From IMG/VR virus record IMGVR_UViG_2721755660_000004: DNA of 45,337 bases. One strand, given 5' to 3'. This stretch comes from a virus (lineage: Duplodnaviria > Heunggongvirae > Uroviricota > Caudoviricetes). Shown piece by piece: positions 2,039 to 18,809 of the stretch. The notes beneath the pieces are model-generated. The model was given only the letters and a program-made list of their open reading frames with translations, was not told the DNA's origin and ran no database searches. Both the position numbers and the translations under genes were made by a program. How positions within the stretch are numbered: position 1 is the first letter of the stretch; each line of letters starts with the position of its first letter.

Positions 2039-2410
2039 TCAGAGCCGTATGTTTGTAGCGGGTTCAATACTGATAATTTCTGCTGAGATAAGCATCCCGG
2101 CAAGCCAGAGTTCTCTGGACAGGTCTTCATCCTGACATATCAGTTCGCCAATATTAATGGTGGCCATGATATCTGTTTCCCCTGTGCGCTCATCCTCGAC
2201 TTCTTCATAAGGCAGCGTTGCGTACAGGCTTTCAATAGCGCAACTGATAACATCCAGTCCGGTCAGATTGCCGCCGACAGTAACTTCGAATGTTTCGCGG
2301 TATTCCCATAGTCCGAAAGTTAATCGAACGGTTTGTTTTGCCATGCGTCCGCATGACGTCAGATTCGGGTCATAGTTCATTATTTGCGGTTGAGTATTCT
2401 GGGTGTTCAT
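2039..2410 (-). CDS. Hypothetical protein (123 aa from MNTQNTQ)
   Basis: Long ORF in operon orientation. The ATG at 2410 lies 8 nt after an AAGGGA SD. No family recognised. Confidence 0.6.
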   Translation of the reverse strand: MNTQNTQPQIMNYDPNLTSCGRMAKQTVRLTFGLWEYRETFEVTVGGNLTGLDVISCAIESLYATLPYEEVEDERTGETDIMATINIGELICQDEDLSRELWLAGMLISAEIISIEPATNIRL

Positions 2411-2424
2411 CTGCATTTCCCTTA

Positions 2425-2443
2425 GCCCGGCGGCCTGCCGGGC
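2425..2443 (-). other. GC-rich hairpin (GCCCGGC-N5-GCCGGGC) just downstream of the SPFH gene
   Basis: Perfect 7-bp inverted repeat seen directly. There is no U-tract, so it may be a weak terminator or an RNA-stabilising element. Confidence 0.35.
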
Positions 2444-2450
2444 ATATAAG

Positions 2451-3278
2451 TTATTTAACCTGGATAAATGGTGTATTTGCACCGCTGGTCATGTATTGCG
2501 GCAGTGTGCCGTTCCATTTATTGATGGCTTCCAGCTCCATAACACCGGGGTTCTGGCGCAGAGCTTCACCGCGTAAACGAATAGCATCGGCTTCGGCCTG
2601 GGCTTTTGTGCGAATCGCATCAGCCTGTCCGGCAGCTTCCGCGCGCAACATGTTGGCCTCCGCTTCACGTTGCTTGACTTCCTGCTCGCGCTGCAGGGTT
2701 TTCTGGTTTGCCGTGACTTTGGCGTTAATGCTGTCGATAACGGTTGGAGGGTATTCCGGTTTACCTACATAAGAGAGGCTCATTACCTGAATGCCGATGG
2801 GTGTCATCTCTTCCTGAATGTCTTTAAGTGCGGCATCCAGTAGTTCAGACTTGCCGCCGTCGATAAATTTGTCAGTGGTCATTTTGCTGGCCAGCCGATT
2901 GAGTGCGTCGGCAATTTTCTGGCGCAGGTCAGTGTCGGTAATGTCATCCACGCCTTTGCGGTAGGTCTGAAACACCGTGGTAACTTTGGATGGATCAACT
3001 TTGTAGGCCACACCGATGTGATAGCCGATGGTTGTACCGTCACTCATCTGGAAACTGAACGGTTCATCGTAGGTCTTCATTTGTTTGAAGGTGGGGAAGA
3101 TATAAACTTCAGTATTCCAGCCAGTCCAGTAGCGACCAACACCGACCACCTCACCGACGCCTTTGTCGTCGCCTAGTTTATTTACCTTGATGCCAACATT
3201 ACCTGGTTCAACGCGATCGCAACCGACAAGGCCAATAGTCGGCAGAACAATGGCTAAAGCAAAAATAATTTTTTTCAT
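2451..3278 (-). CDS. SPFH/Band-7 (prohibitin/HflC-like) domain lipoprotein (275 aa)
   Basis: Signal peptide with lipobox LVGC at residue 20 and Asp at +2. SPFH-like core, then an Ala/Glu/Arg-rich coiled coil (REQEVKQREAEANMLRAEAAGQADAIRTKAQAEADAIRLRGEA). AAGGA SD. Confidence 0.85.
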   Translation of the reverse strand: MKKIIFALAIVLPTIGLVGCDRVEPGNVGIKVNKLGDDKGVGEVVGVGRYWTGWNTEVYIFPTFKQMKTYDEPFSFQMSDGTTIGYHIGVAYKVDPSKVTTVFQTYRKGVDDITDTDLRQKIADALNRLASKMTTDKFIDGGKSELLDAALKDIQEEMTPIGIQVMSLSYVGKPEYPPTVIDSINAKVTANQKTLQREQEVKQREAEANMLRAEAAGQADAIRTKAQAEADAIRLRGEALRQNPGVMELEAINKWNGTLPQYMTSGANTPFIQVK

Positions 3279-3463
3279 CTTTTATCCTTAGTGAAAGAAA
3301 GACCCTTGTAAATGGCATAAATGCAGGGCGGGGTCAGAAACGCCAGTGCAAAGCAAGAAATAACTGCTATCGTATCCTTCATGGATATAAGGAACGGAAC
3401 GAGTAATCCGTAAATGCATGCGATAATTGCCAGTAAAATTACTATTGTGAAATACAGTCTCAT
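3275..3463 (-). CDS. Small 2-TM membrane protein (62 aa) coupled to the SPFH gene
   Basis: Two hydrophobic helices. Its stop overlaps the SPFH start (ATGA). The SD is weak. Confidence 0.6.
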   Translation of the reverse strand: MRLYFTIVILLAIIACIYGLLVPFLISMKDTIAVISCFALAFLTPPCIYAIYKGLSFTKDKR

Positions 3464-3615
3464 TGGTCTGTGGTATCCCGATATTTTTAACCGACTGACA
3501 GCGCAATAAAGAGAATAATGATTTCAGTTAGTGTCAGTACTGTGGCAAGGATTAAAATCAGTTTTACTCTGTTTAATTCACGGTTGCTTTTTATATAAAC
3601 GGTTAGTAAAAGATG

Positions 3616-3632
3616 GAAGAATTATATTCTTC
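3616..3632 (-). terminator. Hairpin GAAGAAT-TAT-ATTCTTC with T-rich flanks on both strands
   Basis: Perfect 7-bp stem 8 nt after the stop of the 3640-4221 gene. It separates that gene from the SPFH cassette. Confidence 0.4.
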
Positions 3633-3639
3633 TTAATAT

Positions 3640-4221
3640 TTAATGTGTCACTGGCGCTTCTGGCATACCATGAGTATTCAGGTCGTTCATCATTTCATCC
3701 AGAAGGAGTTCAAGCCCTTCGCGCCCCATAGCAGAGACAATGAAACCATTATTAGGATCTGCGATGAGCATTTTTTGATAGAGAAACAGAACTCGCCCCA
3801 TGCCTTCAGCTTCACCATATTTTTCAATAAATCCCCATTCGACATGGTTTTGCAGGGCAATGCGAAGTGGTCCTGGGTATATACTCATGCAACCATGCTT
3901 CCCCTTATAAATAACTGCGCGATCTGTAGTTCCGTTATCGTTAGGGATATCAACAGTGCCGTTCTTGTCTTCCTCTTCATTTATAAATGTTGTCACATAC
4001 AGCCATCGCCATTGAGCAACCTTCATATCGACTGAAAATCGTCCCAGTAATCCGGCATCATCGGCTTCAGCAATACATTGCATAATTCTTAAACCGTGAG
4101 AATTTGGATAATCGTATTCACCATCATTAAGTCGCTGTACGGCCTCAACATAATCAATGGTTGTATTGCCAATTTTTATGCCATGTGGCGTAACTTCTGG
4201 TCGGAAATCTGAATGATTCAT
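3640..4221 (-). CDS. Hypothetical protein (193 aa from MNHSDFRPE)
   Basis: AAGGAA SD 8 nt upstream of the ATG at 4221. ATGA overlap with the upstream ORF. AT-rich by eye. No family recognised. Confidence 0.7.
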   Translation of the reverse strand: MNHSDFRPEVTPHGIKIGNTTIDYVEAVQRLNDGEYDYPNSHGLRIMQCIAEADDAGLLGRFSVDMKVAQWRWLYVTTFINEEEDKNGTVDIPNDNGTTDRAVIYKGKHGCMSIYPGPLRIALQNHVEWGFIEKYGEAEGMGRVLFLYQKMLIADPNNGFIVSAMGREGLELLLDEMMNDLNTHGMPEAPVTH

Positions 4222-4406
4222 AATGTTTGTTCCTTTGCTGGTGGAATAATCGTGTAGCCAGCTCTTTTTGCCATCCACAGAAATGTATCCATGCAGCCAA
4301 CGAATTCATTATCCAACAGATGTTTTGAGTAAATTACTTCACCATTTTCAATGGTTAGCAACACTCTTACTTTTTTATGTGTTATGTTTTGTTGTTTTTC
4401 TTTCAT
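4218..4406 (-). CDS. Hypothetical protein (62 aa)
   Basis: GGGAG SD 8 nt upstream. Translationally coupled (ATGA) to the downstream 193-aa ORF. Confidence 0.6.
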   Translation of the reverse strand: MKEKQQNITHKKVRVLLTIENGEVIYSKHLLDNEFVGCMDTFLWMAKRAGYTIIPPAKEQTL

Positions 4407-8671: not shown

Positions 8672-8748
8672 GCACCTTATAAAACGGGTGCCGGGATTGG
8701 CGTCCTGAAATTCAATATAGAGCATAACCGCGCTCATGCGGTTTTTTC
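8672..8748 (+). ncRNA. Candidate small RNA (about 75 nt) between a sigma70-like promoter and an intrinsic terminator
   Basis: -35 TTGATT (8637-8642), 17-nt spacer, -10 TACACT (8660-8665). 5' hairpin GGCACC-N10-GGTGCC (8671-8692). Terminator hairpin plus U-tract at 8726-8748. No credible ORF. Confidence 0.35.
8726..8748 (+). terminator. Rho-independent terminator (AACCGC-GCTCAT-GCGGTT + T6)
   Basis: 6-bp GC-rich stem followed by TTTTTT, seen directly. Confidence 0.6.
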
Positions 8749-8914
8749 GTGTCATGAGCATTGCTACGCCCAAATTATGGTGGGGCGTGCAGGGGCATCG
8801 CAAGATGCGCCGGGTTCTATGTTGACCGGTTACGCCAACCCTGTACGTCTCACCACCTCTGTGATTGGCGTCCCATGTGGTGAGTTCTTTGAATTCAACA
8901 TAGGGGCTGTCACC

Positions 8915-18592: not shown

Positions 18593-18786
18593 AATGTTAA
18601 ATCCATCACAATTAAGTTGATTGGGCATTGCTGGTTGACGGAGCTTTTGTTAGAAAAAATTTGCATGGTGGATCCCCCCGGGTGGTGGGCATATGAGTGA
18701 TGTATGTTTCTGTTCTGCTCCTTTATTATGCTGATTCGGGTACTGATACTGAATTCATCGGGAGGCACCCGGCACCATGCAAGCAT

Positions 18787-18809
18787 GCCCCTCTCCTGAG
18801 GGGCTTTTT
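18787..18809 (+). terminator. Intrinsic terminator (GCCCCTC-TCCT-GAGGGGC + T5)
   Basis: Perfect 7-bp GC-rich stem plus T-run. Confidence 0.65.

What the first reader, a model, noticed from the sequence alone, without database searches (positions are those of the whole stretch)
2425..3632. Self-contained cassette: inner-membrane SPFH/Band-7 lipoprotein plus coupled 2-TM peptide
**Seen:**
- The cassette holds a 62-aa two-helix membrane ORF whose stop overlaps (ATGA) the start of a 275-aa SPFH-domain protein.
- The SPFH protein has a lipobox (LVGC) and Asp at +2, followed by a long Ala/Glu/Arg coiled coil.
- A hairpin with T-rich flanks lies upstream (3616-3632) and a GC-rich hairpin lies downstream (2425-2443). 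This is the typical layout of a moron.

**Known:**
- Asp at +2 is the classical Lol-avoidance signal, so the protein should be retained in the inner membrane facing the periplasm.
- SPFH proteins scaffold membrane microdomains and usually pair with a small NfeD-type membrane partner.
- Several prophage membrane or lipoproteins (HK97 gp15, Cor, Llp) block DNA entry by superinfecting phages.

**Inference:** This may be a prophage-expressed envelope module for superinfection exclusion or membrane-stress sensing.
Basis: partly seen in the sequence, partly recalled or inferred. Interest (0 to 1): 0.55.

Follow-up and report, generated by a model that had tools for sequence, protein, structure and literature searches.

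The report
Phage SPFH lipoprotein with membrane-hairpin partner
This prophage carries a widespread but unstudied two-gene envelope module, an HflK/C-like SPFH lipoprotein facing the periplasm plus a small two-helix membrane partner, that also occurs in lytic phages and in bacterial core genomes, so it is a real gene pair but not a lysogen-specific "moron" or a demonstrated exclusion system.

Summary
A 62-aa two-TM ORF (3275-3463, -) overlaps by ATGA a 275-aa SPFH/Band-7 protein (2451-3278, -) that has lipobox LVGC, Asp+2 and a 65-residue helix. Both hairpins sit at the stated coordinates.

- **Partner:** the small protein is not NfeD-like. It belongs to an uncharacterised family (phrog_1130) with a conserved periplasmic loop motif P-x-L-I-S-x-x-D-T. 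It sits directly upstream of lipobox-type SPFH genes in 33 of 52 diverse loci, against about 2% for control ORFs.
- **Distribution:** the pair occurs in temperate phages (phiP27-like, P88, P1 variants, SSU5-like phage-plasmids), in virulent phages (N4-like, rV5-like), and as a syntenic recF-[pair]-gyrB locus in Sphingomonadaceae.
- **Moron layout:** here the pair lies inside the early-left operon. No promoter was detected and the downstream hairpin has no U-tract.
- **Exclusion:** nothing shows superinfection exclusion. The SPFH protein is under very strong purifying selection (dN/dS 0.02-0.03).

Most likely it builds an HflK/C-like cage on the periplasmic face of the inner membrane, with the hairpin as its membrane partner. 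What this does for the phage is unknown. It is a new variant of a known kind, of moderate interest.

The parts
3275..3463 (-). Small 62-aa two-TM hairpin protein, the partner of the SPFH protein. Predicted topology is N-in/C-in.
   Evidence: ORF. phrog_1130 E=2.7e-21. Hydropathy segments 7-25 and 32-50. K+R counts: N-tail 1.4, loop 0.5, C-tail 4.4. dN/dS 0.15-0.41. PGAP calls it WP_024212032.1 in strain GB089.
3371..3397 (-). Codons for the conserved loop motif P23-F-L-I-S-M-K-D-T31 at the end of TM1, predicted to face the periplasm.
   Evidence: Gap-free core alignment of 25 partners from Enterobacterales, Pseudomonas, Burkholderia, Rhizobium, Dyella, Leptospira, Flavobacterium, Caulobacteraceae and Sphingomonas. 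Pro is nearly invariant; consensus P-x-L-I-S.
2451..3278 (-). 275-aa SPFH/Band-7 lipoprotein gene.
   Evidence: Pfam PF01145 E=6e-31. phrog_200 'lipoprotein' E=7e-115. Foldseek top hits are HflC, HflK, prohibitin, erlin, stomatin and QmcA, E 8e-14 to 6e-8.
3219..3278 (-). Signal peptide with lipobox L17-V-G-C20. The next codon is Asp21, the +2 position.
   Evidence: Sequence. Cys is invariant in 10 of 10 diverse phage homologues. CDRVEPG is present in most of the 120 closest relatives.
2655..3215 (-). SPFH domain, residues 22-208.
   Evidence: Pfam envelope. AF2 alpha/beta domain with pLDDT 70-86.
2553..2747 (-). Long Ala/Glu/Arg/Gln-rich helix, residues 178-242. It corresponds to the coiled-coil wall helix of SPFH cages.
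   Evidence: AF2 helix H178-242. It aligns to the coiled-coil region of HflC, HflK and prohibitin.
2454..2546 (-). C-terminal tail, residues 245-275, carrying the family signature A-I-x-K-W-[ND]-G-x-L-P...P-F. It is disordered in the monomer model.
   Evidence: K254, W255, G257 and P260 are invariant or nearly so across 10 diverse phages. pLDDT below 50. The motif was used as the search pattern.
3285..3289 (-). AAGGA ribosome-binding site for the SPFH gene, located inside the 3' end of the small ORF.
   Evidence: Read directly from the sequence.
2425..2443 (-). GC-rich 7-bp stem-loop in the 40-nt gap between the SPFH stop and the DUF5406 start. It has no U-tract.
   Evidence: dG -17.1, z -2.1. 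Not called by the terminator scan. The stem is conserved with different loops in E110019 and a Klebsiella prophage, and P88 has a different hairpin at the same place. It is intergenic according to the PGAP start of DUF5406.
3616..3632 (-). Weak AT-rich 7-bp stem-loop followed by CATCTTTT, 8 nt after the stop of the upstream phrog_1515 gene.
   Evidence: dG -4.9, z -1.8, 12 of 200 shuffles fold as well. Not called by the terminator scan.
3464..3639 (-). 176-nt AT-rich spacer upstream of the small ORF. No promoter was detected in it.
   Evidence: No minus-strand promoter-like site there at 9 of 12 or better. GC 0.38. No significant structure, z -0.7. The spacer is absent from other contexts that carry the pair.

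Best explanation
The cassette is a phage-borne copy of a widespread bacterial two-gene envelope module.

**Proposed mechanism**
- The large protein is exported and lipid-modified at Cys20. With Asp at +2 it is held on the periplasmic face of the inner membrane.
- Like HflK/C, prohibitin and stomatin, it probably oligomerises through its long helix and conserved C-terminal tail into a dome-shaped SPFH cage that fences off a patch of membrane.
- The small protein is made from the same mRNA by coupled translation. It is a helical hairpin in the inner membrane whose only strongly conserved feature is a short periplasmic loop (P-x-L-I-S-x-x-D-T). It probably serves as the cage's transmembrane partner, doing what the N-terminal TM helices of HflK/C or the TM helices of NfeD do in other SPFH systems, without being homologous to them.
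- In this prophage the pair lies in the leftward early operon, so it is expected to be made after infection or induction rather than from a dedicated lysogen promoter.
- The pay-off for the phage is most likely conditioning or compartmentalising the inner membrane of the infected cell, by sequestering or shielding inner-membrane proteins.

**Shown here:** domain identity, fold, lipobox, gene coupling, partner conservation and distribution.

**Inferred:** lipidation, inner-membrane retention, cage assembly, physical contact between the two proteins, timing of expression and any phenotype.
For: **SPFH identity and cage-type protomer**
- Pfam Band_7 E=6e-31.
- The AF2 model shows an SPFH domain, a 65-residue helix and a disordered tail.
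- All top Foldseek hits are full-length cage-forming SPFH proteins: HflC 7.9e-14, prohibitin, HflK, erlin, stomatin, flotillin and QmcA.

**Conserved partner**
- 33 of 52 lipobox-type loci have an adjacent upstream two-TM ORF. Many overlap the SPFH start by 4-20 nt.
- The control rate is 14 of 637 ORFs.
- 17 of 25 partners hit phrog_1130. The loop motif is shared across phyla.
- Every phage checked from the small-protein side also has the SPFH gene next door.
- A natural in-frame fusion of the two proteins exists (P0002), and its topology is consistent with a periplasmic SPFH domain.

**Inner-membrane, periplasmic face**
- Asp+2 is present in nearly all close enterobacterial relatives.
- Partner charges indicate N-in/C-in. 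The Pylas annotators reached the same topology independently.
- The Cys->Tyr SSU5-like clade keeps both genes and is indexed in 362 data blocks.
- Distant relatives have an N-terminal TM helix instead of a lipobox.

**A general membrane function rather than a phage weapon**
- recF-[pair]-gyrB synteny is found in five Sphingomonadaceae loci.
- SPFH dN/dS is 0.02-0.03.
- The mature protein is about 93% identical between phiP27-like phages and P88, while their partners are only 23% identical.

**Early-operon setting**
- In P1 variants the pair sits just upstream of ban. In canonical P1 that interval belongs to the C1-controlled ban operon.
Against: - No experiment bears on lipidation, location, oligomerisation or contact between the two proteins.
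- The +2 residue is not conserved across the family. It is Tyr in N4-like phages, Glu in rV5-like phages and some Klebsiella versions, and Asn, Ser, Gly, Ala or Thr elsewhere. Some members may therefore go to the outer membrane.
- Arg at +3 might weaken Lol avoidance. This is recalled from the literature and was not tested.
- A prophage-encoded HflK/C-like SPFH protein of Pasteurella multocida was found in outer-membrane vesicles (PMC9872710). Its relation to this family was not tested.
- Almost identical SPFH proteins work beside very different partners, which could mean the two do not touch at all.
- 19 of 52 lipobox-type loci lack an adjacent partner by my criteria. At least two of these are criteria failures, not absences: GAP31 has the partner one gene further upstream and L102 has a two-TM ORF that failed the loop filter.
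- The AF2 model has only medium confidence (pLDDT 71, pTM 0.50).
- A weak promoter in the 176-nt spacer cannot be excluded.
Confidence: 0.6

Rival explanations
1. The pair is a prophage-expressed superinfection-exclusion module that blocks DNA entry by incoming phages at the inner membrane. The SPFH cage would corral or mask an inner-membrane entry factor, and the small protein would act like T4 Imm.
For: - The location is right: inner membrane, periplasmic face.
- It sits among early accessory genes. In the N4-species phage VEc25 the gene directly upstream matches phrog_1510 'superinfection exclusion' at E=1e-50.
- Virulent phages also encode exclusion proteins (T4 Imm and Sp, T5 Llp; from general knowledge), so presence in lytic phages does not exclude this.
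- In P1 variants the pair replaces plp-upl-tciABC, another envelope-related accessory cluster.
Against: - No PADLOC hit. There is no homology to any exclusion family in PHROGs or Pfam.
- The SPFH protein is under extreme purifying selection (dN/dS 0.02-0.03) and is near-identical across unrelated phages. This is unlike proteins in an arms race.
- The same pair is a syntenic core locus between recF and gyrB in Sphingomonadaceae.
- No lysogen promoter was detected.
Confidence: 0.18
2. The SPFH protein is an HflK/C mimic. It joins, replaces or competes with the host HflK/C cage around FtsH and so changes FtsH-dependent proteolysis. In temperate phages this would bias the lysis-lysogeny decision (stability of CII-, CIII- or Xis-like proteins). 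In lytic phages it would protect phage membrane proteins.
For: - HflC and HflK are among the best structural matches.
- The only NCBIfam hits are hflC and hflK, at E 5e-6 and 3.5e-5.
- The predicted topology, inner-membrane-anchored and periplasm-facing, is that of HflK/C.
- The pair lies in the early-left operon, which in lambda also carries cIII, an FtsH inhibitor (from general knowledge).
- Several genome papers suggest this role without testing it (PMC4936722, PMC10269572).
Against: - Scores are far below the hflC and hflK equivalog cut-offs: 25 against 134 bits and 23 against 159 bits.
- The profile matches prohibitin as well as HflC, both near E 1e-6, so there is no specific affinity to HflK/C.
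- The pair also occurs in strictly virulent phages and as a bacterial core gene pair.
- No FtsH-binding feature could be tested.
Confidence: 0.15
3. The SPFH protein is an outer-membrane or vesicle-associated lipoprotein that acts on the host animal or on the cell surface. It would be lysogenic conversion or a virulence factor, like PM0222 of Pasteurella multocida, and would be unrelated to the small ORF.
For: - PM0222 is a prophage-encoded HflK/C-like SPFH protein of 25-35 kDa. It is found in OMVs, signals through TLR1/2, and its deletion attenuates virulence (PMC9872710).
- The window is a phiP27-like prophage, a type that is Stx-converting, in a ground-beef E. coli isolate.
- Non-Asp +2 residues in several relatives would favour outer-membrane sorting.
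Against: - This protein has Asp+2.
- The lipobox-less Cys->Tyr clade persists.
- The partner is an inner-membrane hairpin and is tightly coupled to the SPFH gene.
- The family is common in virulent phages of non-pathogens and in environmental bacteria.
- Homology of PM0222 to this family was not established.
Confidence: 0.05

Closest known systems
HflK/HflC (E. coli FtsH-modulating SPFH cage)
   Same: - Same SPFH fold followed by a long coiled-coil helix and a C-terminal tail. HflC and HflK are top Foldseek hits.
- Same predicted topology: anchored in the inner membrane with the bulk in the periplasm.
- Encoded as a translationally coupled gene pair.
   Different: - Sequence similarity is marginal: E about 1e-6 to PDB chains, and 23-25 bits against equivalog cut-offs of 134-159.
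- The anchor is a lipobox Cys, not an N-terminal TM helix.
- There is one SPFH paralogue, not two.
- The second gene is a 62-aa hairpin, not an SPFH protein.
- No link to FtsH has been shown.
SPFH-NfeD operons (QmcA-YbbJ, YqiK-YqiJ, archaeal stomatin-STOPP)
   Same: An SPFH protein encoded next to, and probably co-translated with, a small membrane protein with two or more TM helices. The small protein is thought to sit with the cage in the membrane.
   Different: - The partner lacks the NfeD OB-fold domain. It gives no PF01957 hit and shows no similarity to the solved QmcA-YbbJ complex.
- QmcA-YbbJ faces the cytoplasm, whereas this pair is predicted to face the periplasm.
PHROG families phrog_200 ('lipoprotein') and phrog_1130 ('membrane protein'), including phiP27 L05, P88 gp12/gp11 and Pylas gp29/gp28
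   Same: Direct membership: E=7e-115 and 2.7e-21. phiP27 L05 is 99.3% identical.
   Different: - These are sequence clusters with no assigned function.
- Their obligatory pairing, the loop motif and the bacterial core-genome copies are not recorded in the annotations or papers I could search.
Phage membrane and lipoprotein exclusion systems (T5 Llp, phi80/N15 Cor, HK97 gp15, T4 Imm/Sp)
   Same: Small envelope proteins encoded among accessory or early genes. Llp and Cor are lipoproteins, and Imm is a small inner-membrane protein.
   Different: - No sequence or profile similarity.
- Those proteins are small and are not known to be SPFH-fold proteins (from general knowledge; their structures were not compared here).
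- No functional evidence for exclusion exists here.
Staphylococcus Kayvirus MbpS
   Same: A phage-encoded SPFH protein, a distant homologue at about 25% identity and E 3e-7, of unknown function. It has been speculated to organise membrane microdomains during infection (PMC7150955).
   Different: - The host is Gram-positive.
- The gene sits in the lysis module between lysK and tgl.
- No phrog_1130-type partner has been reported.

Membership tests
SPFH / Band 7 superfamily (PF01145) | Profile match above the curated gathering score | tested here: met
   108.3 bits against a cut-off of 23.6, E=6e-31, residues 22-208, covering profile positions 2-176 of 176.
SPFH / Band 7 superfamily (PF01145) | SPFH alpha/beta fold followed by a long coiled-coil helix, as in cage-forming members | tested here: met
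   AF2 model with pLDDT 71 and helix 178-242. Foldseek probability is 1.00 to HflC, HflK, prohibitin, erlin, stomatin, flotillin and QmcA.
SPFH / Band 7 superfamily (PF01145) | Assembly into a large ring or cage oligomer on a membrane | not testable with these tools
   Only monomer prediction is available. The C-terminal tail that would form the cap is disordered in the monomer model.
HflK / HflC (NCBIfam TIGR01933 / TIGR01932 equivalogs) | Score above the equivalog cut-off | tested here: not met
   hflC 25.5 bits against 134.4; hflK 23.4 bits against 159.4.
Bacterial lipoprotein (SPase II substrate) | Signal peptide ending in lipobox [LVI][ASTVI][GAS]C | tested here: met
   MKK-IIFALAIVLPTIG-LVGC20. 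Cys is invariant in 10 diverse homologues. Actual lipidation was not testable. One large clade has Cys->Tyr.
Inner-membrane-retained lipoprotein (Lol avoidance, E. coli +2 rule) | Asp at position +2 after the lipidated Cys | tested here: met
   C20-D21-R22 here, and CDRVEPG in most of the 120 closest relatives. It is not conserved family-wide: Y, E, N, S, G, A and T also occur. True localisation is not testable here.
NfeD family (PF01957), for the small partner | NfeD C-terminal OB-fold domain or profile match | tested here: not met
   No hit at E<=0.1 for the window protein or at E<=1 for 25 family members. At 62 aa there is no room for an extra domain. The profile finds nothing related in the PDB, which includes the QmcA-YbbJ complex 8z5g.
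phrog_1130 (phage small membrane protein) | Profile match | tested here: met
   E=2.7e-21 over residues 1-61. 17 of 25 collected partners match.
Moron (independent transcription unit inserted in a phage operon) | Own promoter upstream | tested here: not met
   There is no minus-strand sigma-70-like site in 3464-3639 at 9 of 12 or better. In most other phages the pair abuts the preceding gene with an overlap or a gap of 2 nt or less. A weak or non-sigma-70 promoter is not excluded.
Moron (independent transcription unit inserted in a phage operon) | Own intrinsic terminator downstream | tested here: inconclusive
   A stable hairpin (dG -17.1) is conserved at the 3' end of the gene in several contexts, but it has no U-tract and was not called by the terminator scan.
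Moron (independent transcription unit inserted in a phage operon) | Composition distinct from the flanks, and presence or absence among related phages | tested here: met
   - GC is 0.50-0.56 over the mature SPFH coding part, against 0.36-0.47 in the flanks. The small ORF (0.38-0.42) resembles the flanks.
- P1 variants carry the pair where canonical P1 has plp-upl-tciABC.
- DNA identity to P88 and P1 variants covers only window 2484-3230.
Moron (independent transcription unit inserted in a phage operon) | Expression from the repressed prophage | not testable with these tools
   This needs lysogen RNA-seq or proteomics.
Known anti-phage defence or exclusion systems (PADLOC-DB, PHROG 'superinfection exclusion') | Profile match to a catalogued system protein | tested here: not met
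   No PADLOC hit at E<=0.1 for the pair or its two neighbours. The PHROG hits are 'lipoprotein' and 'membrane protein', not exclusion families.

The most novel reading that the evidence does not exclude
The pair defines an unrecognised two-component SPFH system: a lipid-anchored, periplasm-facing SPFH cage plus a dedicated 'P-x-L-I-S' two-TM hairpin that replaces NfeD. Bacteria would use it as a housekeeping inner-membrane microdomain organiser, and hundreds of temperate and virulent phages would have captured it to take control of a specific inner-membrane process in the infected cell. Candidates are fencing FtsH or DNA-entry and lysis factors, with consequences for superinfection, the lysis-lysogeny choice or lysis timing.
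Probability: 0.25. Interest if true: 0.7.

Novelty: new variant of a known kind. Interest (0 to 1): 0.42.

Why it matters
**Prevalence**
- SPFH genes are noted again and again in phage genome papers and never explained.
- tblastn finds a homologue of this protein in 741 of 50,697 phage records.
- DNA of this cassette is found in 566 of 5,426 complete E. coli genomes, and the protein on phage-plasmids including Yersinia pestis plasmids of about 94-107 kb.

**What this analysis adds**
- The gene comes with a fixed, previously unremarked membrane partner.
- The same pair is a core chromosomal locus in some bacteria.
- Together these turn a vague 'lipoprotein' annotation into a defined two-protein system with a testable interface: one short periplasmic loop.

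**If the function were found**
- It would explain a common accessory module of Stx-type prophages, P1-like and SSU5-like phage-plasmids and N4-like therapeutic phages.
- It would add a periplasmic, lipid-anchored branch to SPFH cage biology.

**Limit:** as it stands this is one ordinary instance of a widespread family, with no phenotype.

Tried and rejected
**Ideas tested and rejected**
- **PADLOC defence models:** no hit for the pair or its neighbours.
- **NfeD identity of the small protein:** rejected.
- **P1 Plp/Upl as the same pair:** I suspected that 'putative lipoprotein' and 'upstream of plp' were these genes. Plp is 125 aa and shows no similarity (BLASTP E=17). Upl shows none to the partner profile (hhalign probability 0.06). 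P1 variants carry the SPFH pair in place of that cluster.
- **Spanin reading:** a two-component spanin (membrane protein plus lipoprotein from overlapping genes) was considered. The sizes are the wrong way round: here the large coiled-coil protein is the lipoprotein. The genes are in the early region, not the lysis region.

**Searches that led nowhere**
- **Promoter and terminator scan:** site numbers equal the shuffle expectation and nothing useful lies in the spacer.
- **Literature for a functional study of phage SPFH proteins:** nine searches found only speculation, plus the P. multocida PM0222 paper. I could not obtain the PM0222 sequence, so its relation to this family is untested.
- **First IMG/VR scan:** it returned only near-identical loci and was uninformative for diversity. 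The genome-contig scan with an alignment solved that.
- **Single-sequence phmmer of the 62-aa protein against 1.84 billion representatives:** only 23 hits. The sequence is too short and hydrophobic, so the partner family had to be collected by genomic position instead.

**Method caveat**
- My first start-codon heuristic mis-called several SPFH starts and was redone.
Full report
**What is in the sequence**

On the minus strand, a 62-aa ORF (3275-3463) ends in a TGA that overlaps the ATG of a 275-aa ORF (2451-3278) as ATGA. An AAGGA ribosome-binding site lies 6 nt before that ATG.

The large protein matches Pfam Band_7/SPFH at E=6e-31, 108 bits against a cut-off of 23.6. It matches phrog_200 'lipoprotein' at E=7e-115. 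Its N-terminus MKKIIFALAIVLPTIGLVGC-DRV is a textbook lipoprotein signal peptide with Asp at +2.

An AlphaFold2 model (mean pLDDT 71, pTM 0.50) shows an alpha/beta SPFH domain, one uninterrupted helix from 178 to 242, and a disordered tail. Foldseek against the PDB returns only full-length cage-forming SPFH proteins at the top: HflC, prohibitin, HflK, erlin, stomatin, flotillin and QmcA. At the sequence level the relation to any of them is remote. Profile E-values are about 1e-6, and hflC/hflK NCBIfam scores are far below the equivalog cut-offs.

- The downstream one (2443->2425) is stable (dG -17.1, z -2.1) but has no U-tract.
- The upstream one (3632->3616) is weak (dG -4.9, z -1.8).
- The consensus scan calls neither as a terminator and finds no promoter on the coding strand in the 176-nt spacer.

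**Where the window comes from**

- The region is 96% identical in DNA to phage phiP27 and 94-95% to a set of Stx2-converting phages.
- It is 100% identical to a prophage of E. coli GB089, integrated next to yecN-cmoA-cmoB.
- Read in the direction of transcription, the gene order is:
  - LexA-family (CI-like) repressor, an HTH protein, three small hypothetical ORFs and a phrog_1515 protein;
  - the small ORF and the SPFH gene;
  - DUF5406, DUF4222, one small hypothetical ORF, xis and int.
- The pair is therefore embedded in the leftward early operon.
- PGAP and the profile matches start DUF5406 at Met25 of the mechanical ORF. The GC-rich hairpin therefore lies in a 40-nt intergenic gap.

**The small ORF is a real and conserved partner**

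- In phage P88 (P2-like) the same arrangement occurs. The mature SPFH protein is 93% identical, but the small protein is only 23% identical.
- I collected upstream ORFs from diverse phages and from 80 bacterial loci. This revealed a family of two-TM hairpins with a gap-free core. It has a nearly invariant Pro at the end of TM1 and a loop motif P-x-[LM]-[IV]-[SN]-x-x-[DSN]-[TSD].
- 17 of 25 members hit phrog_1130. None hits NfeD or any other Pfam family convincingly, and none resembles any solved chain, including the QmcA-YbbJ complex.
- By one fixed criterion, 33 of 52 lipobox-type SPFH loci have such a partner. The criterion was a stop within about 60 nt before or 45 nt after the SPFH start, two TM segments and a short loop. 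The rate was 3 of 42 for distant non-lipobox relatives, and 14 of 637 for control ORFs in the same loci.
- Two of the apparent misses are criteria failures, not absences. GAP31 has a 54-aa ORF inserted between the two genes, and L102 failed the loop filter.
- From the small-protein side, every phage inspected had the SPFH gene next door: phiP27, a Klebsiella prophage, GAP31, Fraca and Pylas.
- The small ORF is under purifying selection (dN/dS 0.15-0.41), though far less than the SPFH gene at 0.02-0.03.
- Charge distribution predicts N-in/C-in, which puts the conserved loop in the periplasm: K+R of 1.4 in the N-tail, 0.5 in the loop and 4.4 in the C-tail. The Pylas annotators reached the same topology independently.
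- One cluster of 8 sequences (P0002) is an in-frame fusion of the two proteins. Its topology would still place the SPFH domain in the periplasm. This may be a sequencing frameshift, so I give it little weight.

**Distribution changes the interpretation**

- tblastn finds the SPFH protein in 741 phage records. These include:
  - temperate phages: phiP27-like, P88, Fraca, and Klebsiella, Pseudomonas and Burkholderia prophages;
  - virulent Gram-negative phages: N4 species VEc25 (62%), Erwinia S6 (70%), rV5-like GAP31, SSE121 and Mydo (about 47-49%), and LUZ24-like Pseudomonas phages (38%);
  - jumbo phages, phiCbK-like and crAss-like phages;
  - distant relatives: Staphylococcus Kayvirus MbpS and haloarchaeal tailed viruses.
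- It is on 612 plasmid records, almost all non-mobilisable. By size and gene content these are phage-plasmids, P1-like and SSU5-like, and they include Yersinia pestis plasmids of about 94-107 kb.
- DNA of the cassette is present in 566 of 5,426 complete E. coli genomes.
- The pair is also a bacterial chromosomal module.
  - In five Sphingomonadaceae loci it sits between recF and gyrB with conserved synteny.
  - Partners with the same motif accompany the gene in Caulobacteraceae, Dyella, Pseudomonas, Leptospira and a Flavobacterium MAG.
- A module that is core in some bacteria, carried by strictly lytic phages, and almost invariant in sequence is unlikely to be a lysogen-only moron or a fast-evolving exclusion weapon.

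**The moron test**

- In favour:
  - The mature SPFH coding part has higher GC (0.50-0.56) than its surroundings (0.36-0.47).
  - The pair is present or absent among related phages. P1 variants carry it where canonical P1 has plp-upl-tciABC.
  - A 3' hairpin travels with the gene.
- Against:
  - No promoter was detected.
  - The hairpin lacks a U-tract.
  - The 176-nt spacer is specific to phiP27-like phages. Elsewhere the small ORF overlaps or abuts the preceding gene. In E110019-type prophages the shared DNA stops at the small ORF's start.
- The mosaic joint with P88 and P1 variants lies at the signal-peptide/mature-protein boundary: shared DNA covers window 2484-3230. The unit of exchange is therefore not a promoter-gene-terminator cassette.
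- In P1 variants the pair sits just upstream of ban. In canonical P1 the corresponding interval belongs to the ban operon, which is controlled by the C1 repressor.
- In SSU5-like elements the pair sits among gp32, exonuclease and RecA genes.
- All of this points to expression with the early lytic genes. That is an inference, and RNA-seq would settle it.

**Inner or outer membrane**

- For this protein, Asp+2 predicts inner-membrane retention, and CDRVEPG is shared by most of the 120 closest relatives.
- Three further observations agree:
  - The coupled partner is an inner-membrane hairpin with a periplasmic conserved loop.
  - A very common SSU5-like clade has Cys->Tyr at the lipobox (IIGYDRVEPG) yet keeps an intact gene and partner. 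P0110 is indexed in 362 data blocks. That protein can only be anchored by an uncleaved signal peptide or released into the periplasm, not sent to the outer membrane by Lol.
  - Distant relatives in Acidobacteriota carry an N-terminal TM helix instead of a lipobox.
- Against a universal rule, the +2 residue varies: Tyr in N4-like phages, Glu in rV5-like phages and some Klebsiella phages, and others outside the enterics.
- The Pasteurella prophage protein PM0222 was found in OMVs. Its homology to this family was not tested.

**Most likely mechanism**

I commit to the following, at confidence about 0.6.
- The large protein forms an HflK/C-like oligomeric cage on the periplasmic leaflet of the inner membrane.
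- The hairpin protein is its transmembrane partner and contacts it, if at all, through the short conserved loop.
- Nearly identical SPFH proteins coexist with partners that share little beyond that loop. This fits an interface limited to the loop, or no direct contact at all.
- The phage makes the pair early, to condition or compartmentalise the inner membrane of the infected cell.
- Which process is affected is not known. Modulating FtsH (0.15) and superinfection exclusion (0.18) are the concrete candidates. A surface or virulence role is less likely (0.05).

**Comparison with what is known, and novelty**

- The protein is a member of the SPFH superfamily and of phrog_200. Its partner is a member of phrog_1130. 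Both genes are annotated in RefSeq, as 'SPFH domain-containing protein' and 'hypothetical protein'.
- It is not an HflK/C equivalog. The partner is not NfeD. The pair is not in PADLOC.
- In the searchable literature, phage SPFH genes are mentioned only in passing, with speculation about lysogeny, adsorption or secretion.
- I found no description of the fixed pairing, the loop motif, the lipobox-less clade or the bacterial core-genome copies.
- I therefore class it as a new variant of a known kind: an SPFH-plus-small-partner operon with a lipid anchor, periplasmic orientation and a non-NfeD partner.
- This particular locus is an ordinary instance of that variant.

Noticed in passing
P0108-P0120 (for example P0110); loci L176-L178, 2797-3831: A very common clade on E. 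coli SSU5-like phage-plasmids has the lipobox Cys replaced by Tyr (IIGYDRVEPG). It still keeps an intact SPFH ORF and the 66-aa partner upstream. P0110 is indexed in 362 data blocks. Isolated Klebsiella variants have Trp, Tyr or Phe at the same position.
   Followed up: partly
P0002 (347 aa, 8 member sequences, 94-kb contig): This is an in-frame fusion of a P1-variant-type small partner with the SPFH protein (...REKTRKLINEK-TLISAAII...CDRVEPG). It is either a natural 'Rosetta-stone' fusion or a frameshift artefact.
   Followed up: no
L116, L120, L122, L125, L130 (Sphingomonas and Stakelama genomes): The two-TM-plus-SPFH-lipoprotein pair sits between recF and gyrB with conserved synteny in five loci. 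In that family it is a core chromosomal locus, not a prophage gene.
   Followed up: partly
window 3640-4278 (-); L085 3325-3951: The phrog_1515 protein of unknown function lies immediately upstream of the pair in the window. A 47%-identical homologue lies immediately downstream of the pair in Klebsiella prophage ST340-VIM1phi10.1. It is a recurrent neighbour on either side.
   Followed up: partly
L174 2967-4011 compared with L175 14349-17001 (P1 variants against canonical P1): In P1 variants the SPFH pair occupies the interval between the tRNA genes and ban. Canonical P1 has plp, upl and tciABC in that interval. Plp and Upl are unrelated to the pair, so this looks like an accessory-gene hotspot for envelope functions.
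   Followed up: partly
L087 1407-1721 (phage VEc25, species Enquatrovirus N4): In this N4-species phage the gene directly upstream of the pair matches phrog_1510 'superinfection exclusion' (E=1e-50). This makes a cluster of three small envelope genes after RNAP2 and a Hoc-like gene.
   Followed up: no
L083 2332-2496 (phage GAP31): rV5-like phages have an extra 54-aa non-membrane ORF (phrog_13358) inserted between the partner and the SPFH gene. It overlaps both.
   Followed up: no
window 2039-2482 (-): The mechanical 147-aa ORF from GTG overlaps the SPFH 3' end. Pfam DUF5406, phrog_3409 and PGAP all support the 123-aa form starting at 2410, so the GC-rich hairpin is intergenic.
   Followed up: yes
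window 8672-8748, 8773-8860 and 18634-18809 (+): Rfam matches above gathering score: isrK (62.8 bits), C4 antisense RNA of the P1/P7 immunity type (80.1 bits), and STnc100 sRNA (93.7 bits). No tRNA genes were found in the window.
   Followed up: no
window about 1-1340 and beyond the left end (from L179): In E. coli GB089 the prophage is integrated next to a DUF72 gene and the yecN-cmoA-cmoB cluster, with the integrase gene abutting the DUF72 ORF.
   Followed up: no
window 2484-3230: DNA identity of 87-92% to P88 and P1 variants covers only the mature SPFH coding part. It ends at the signal-peptide/mature junction on one side and about 33 nt before the stop on the other. GC rises to 0.50-0.56 in this stretch. 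This marks a recombination module smaller than the gene.
   Followed up: partly
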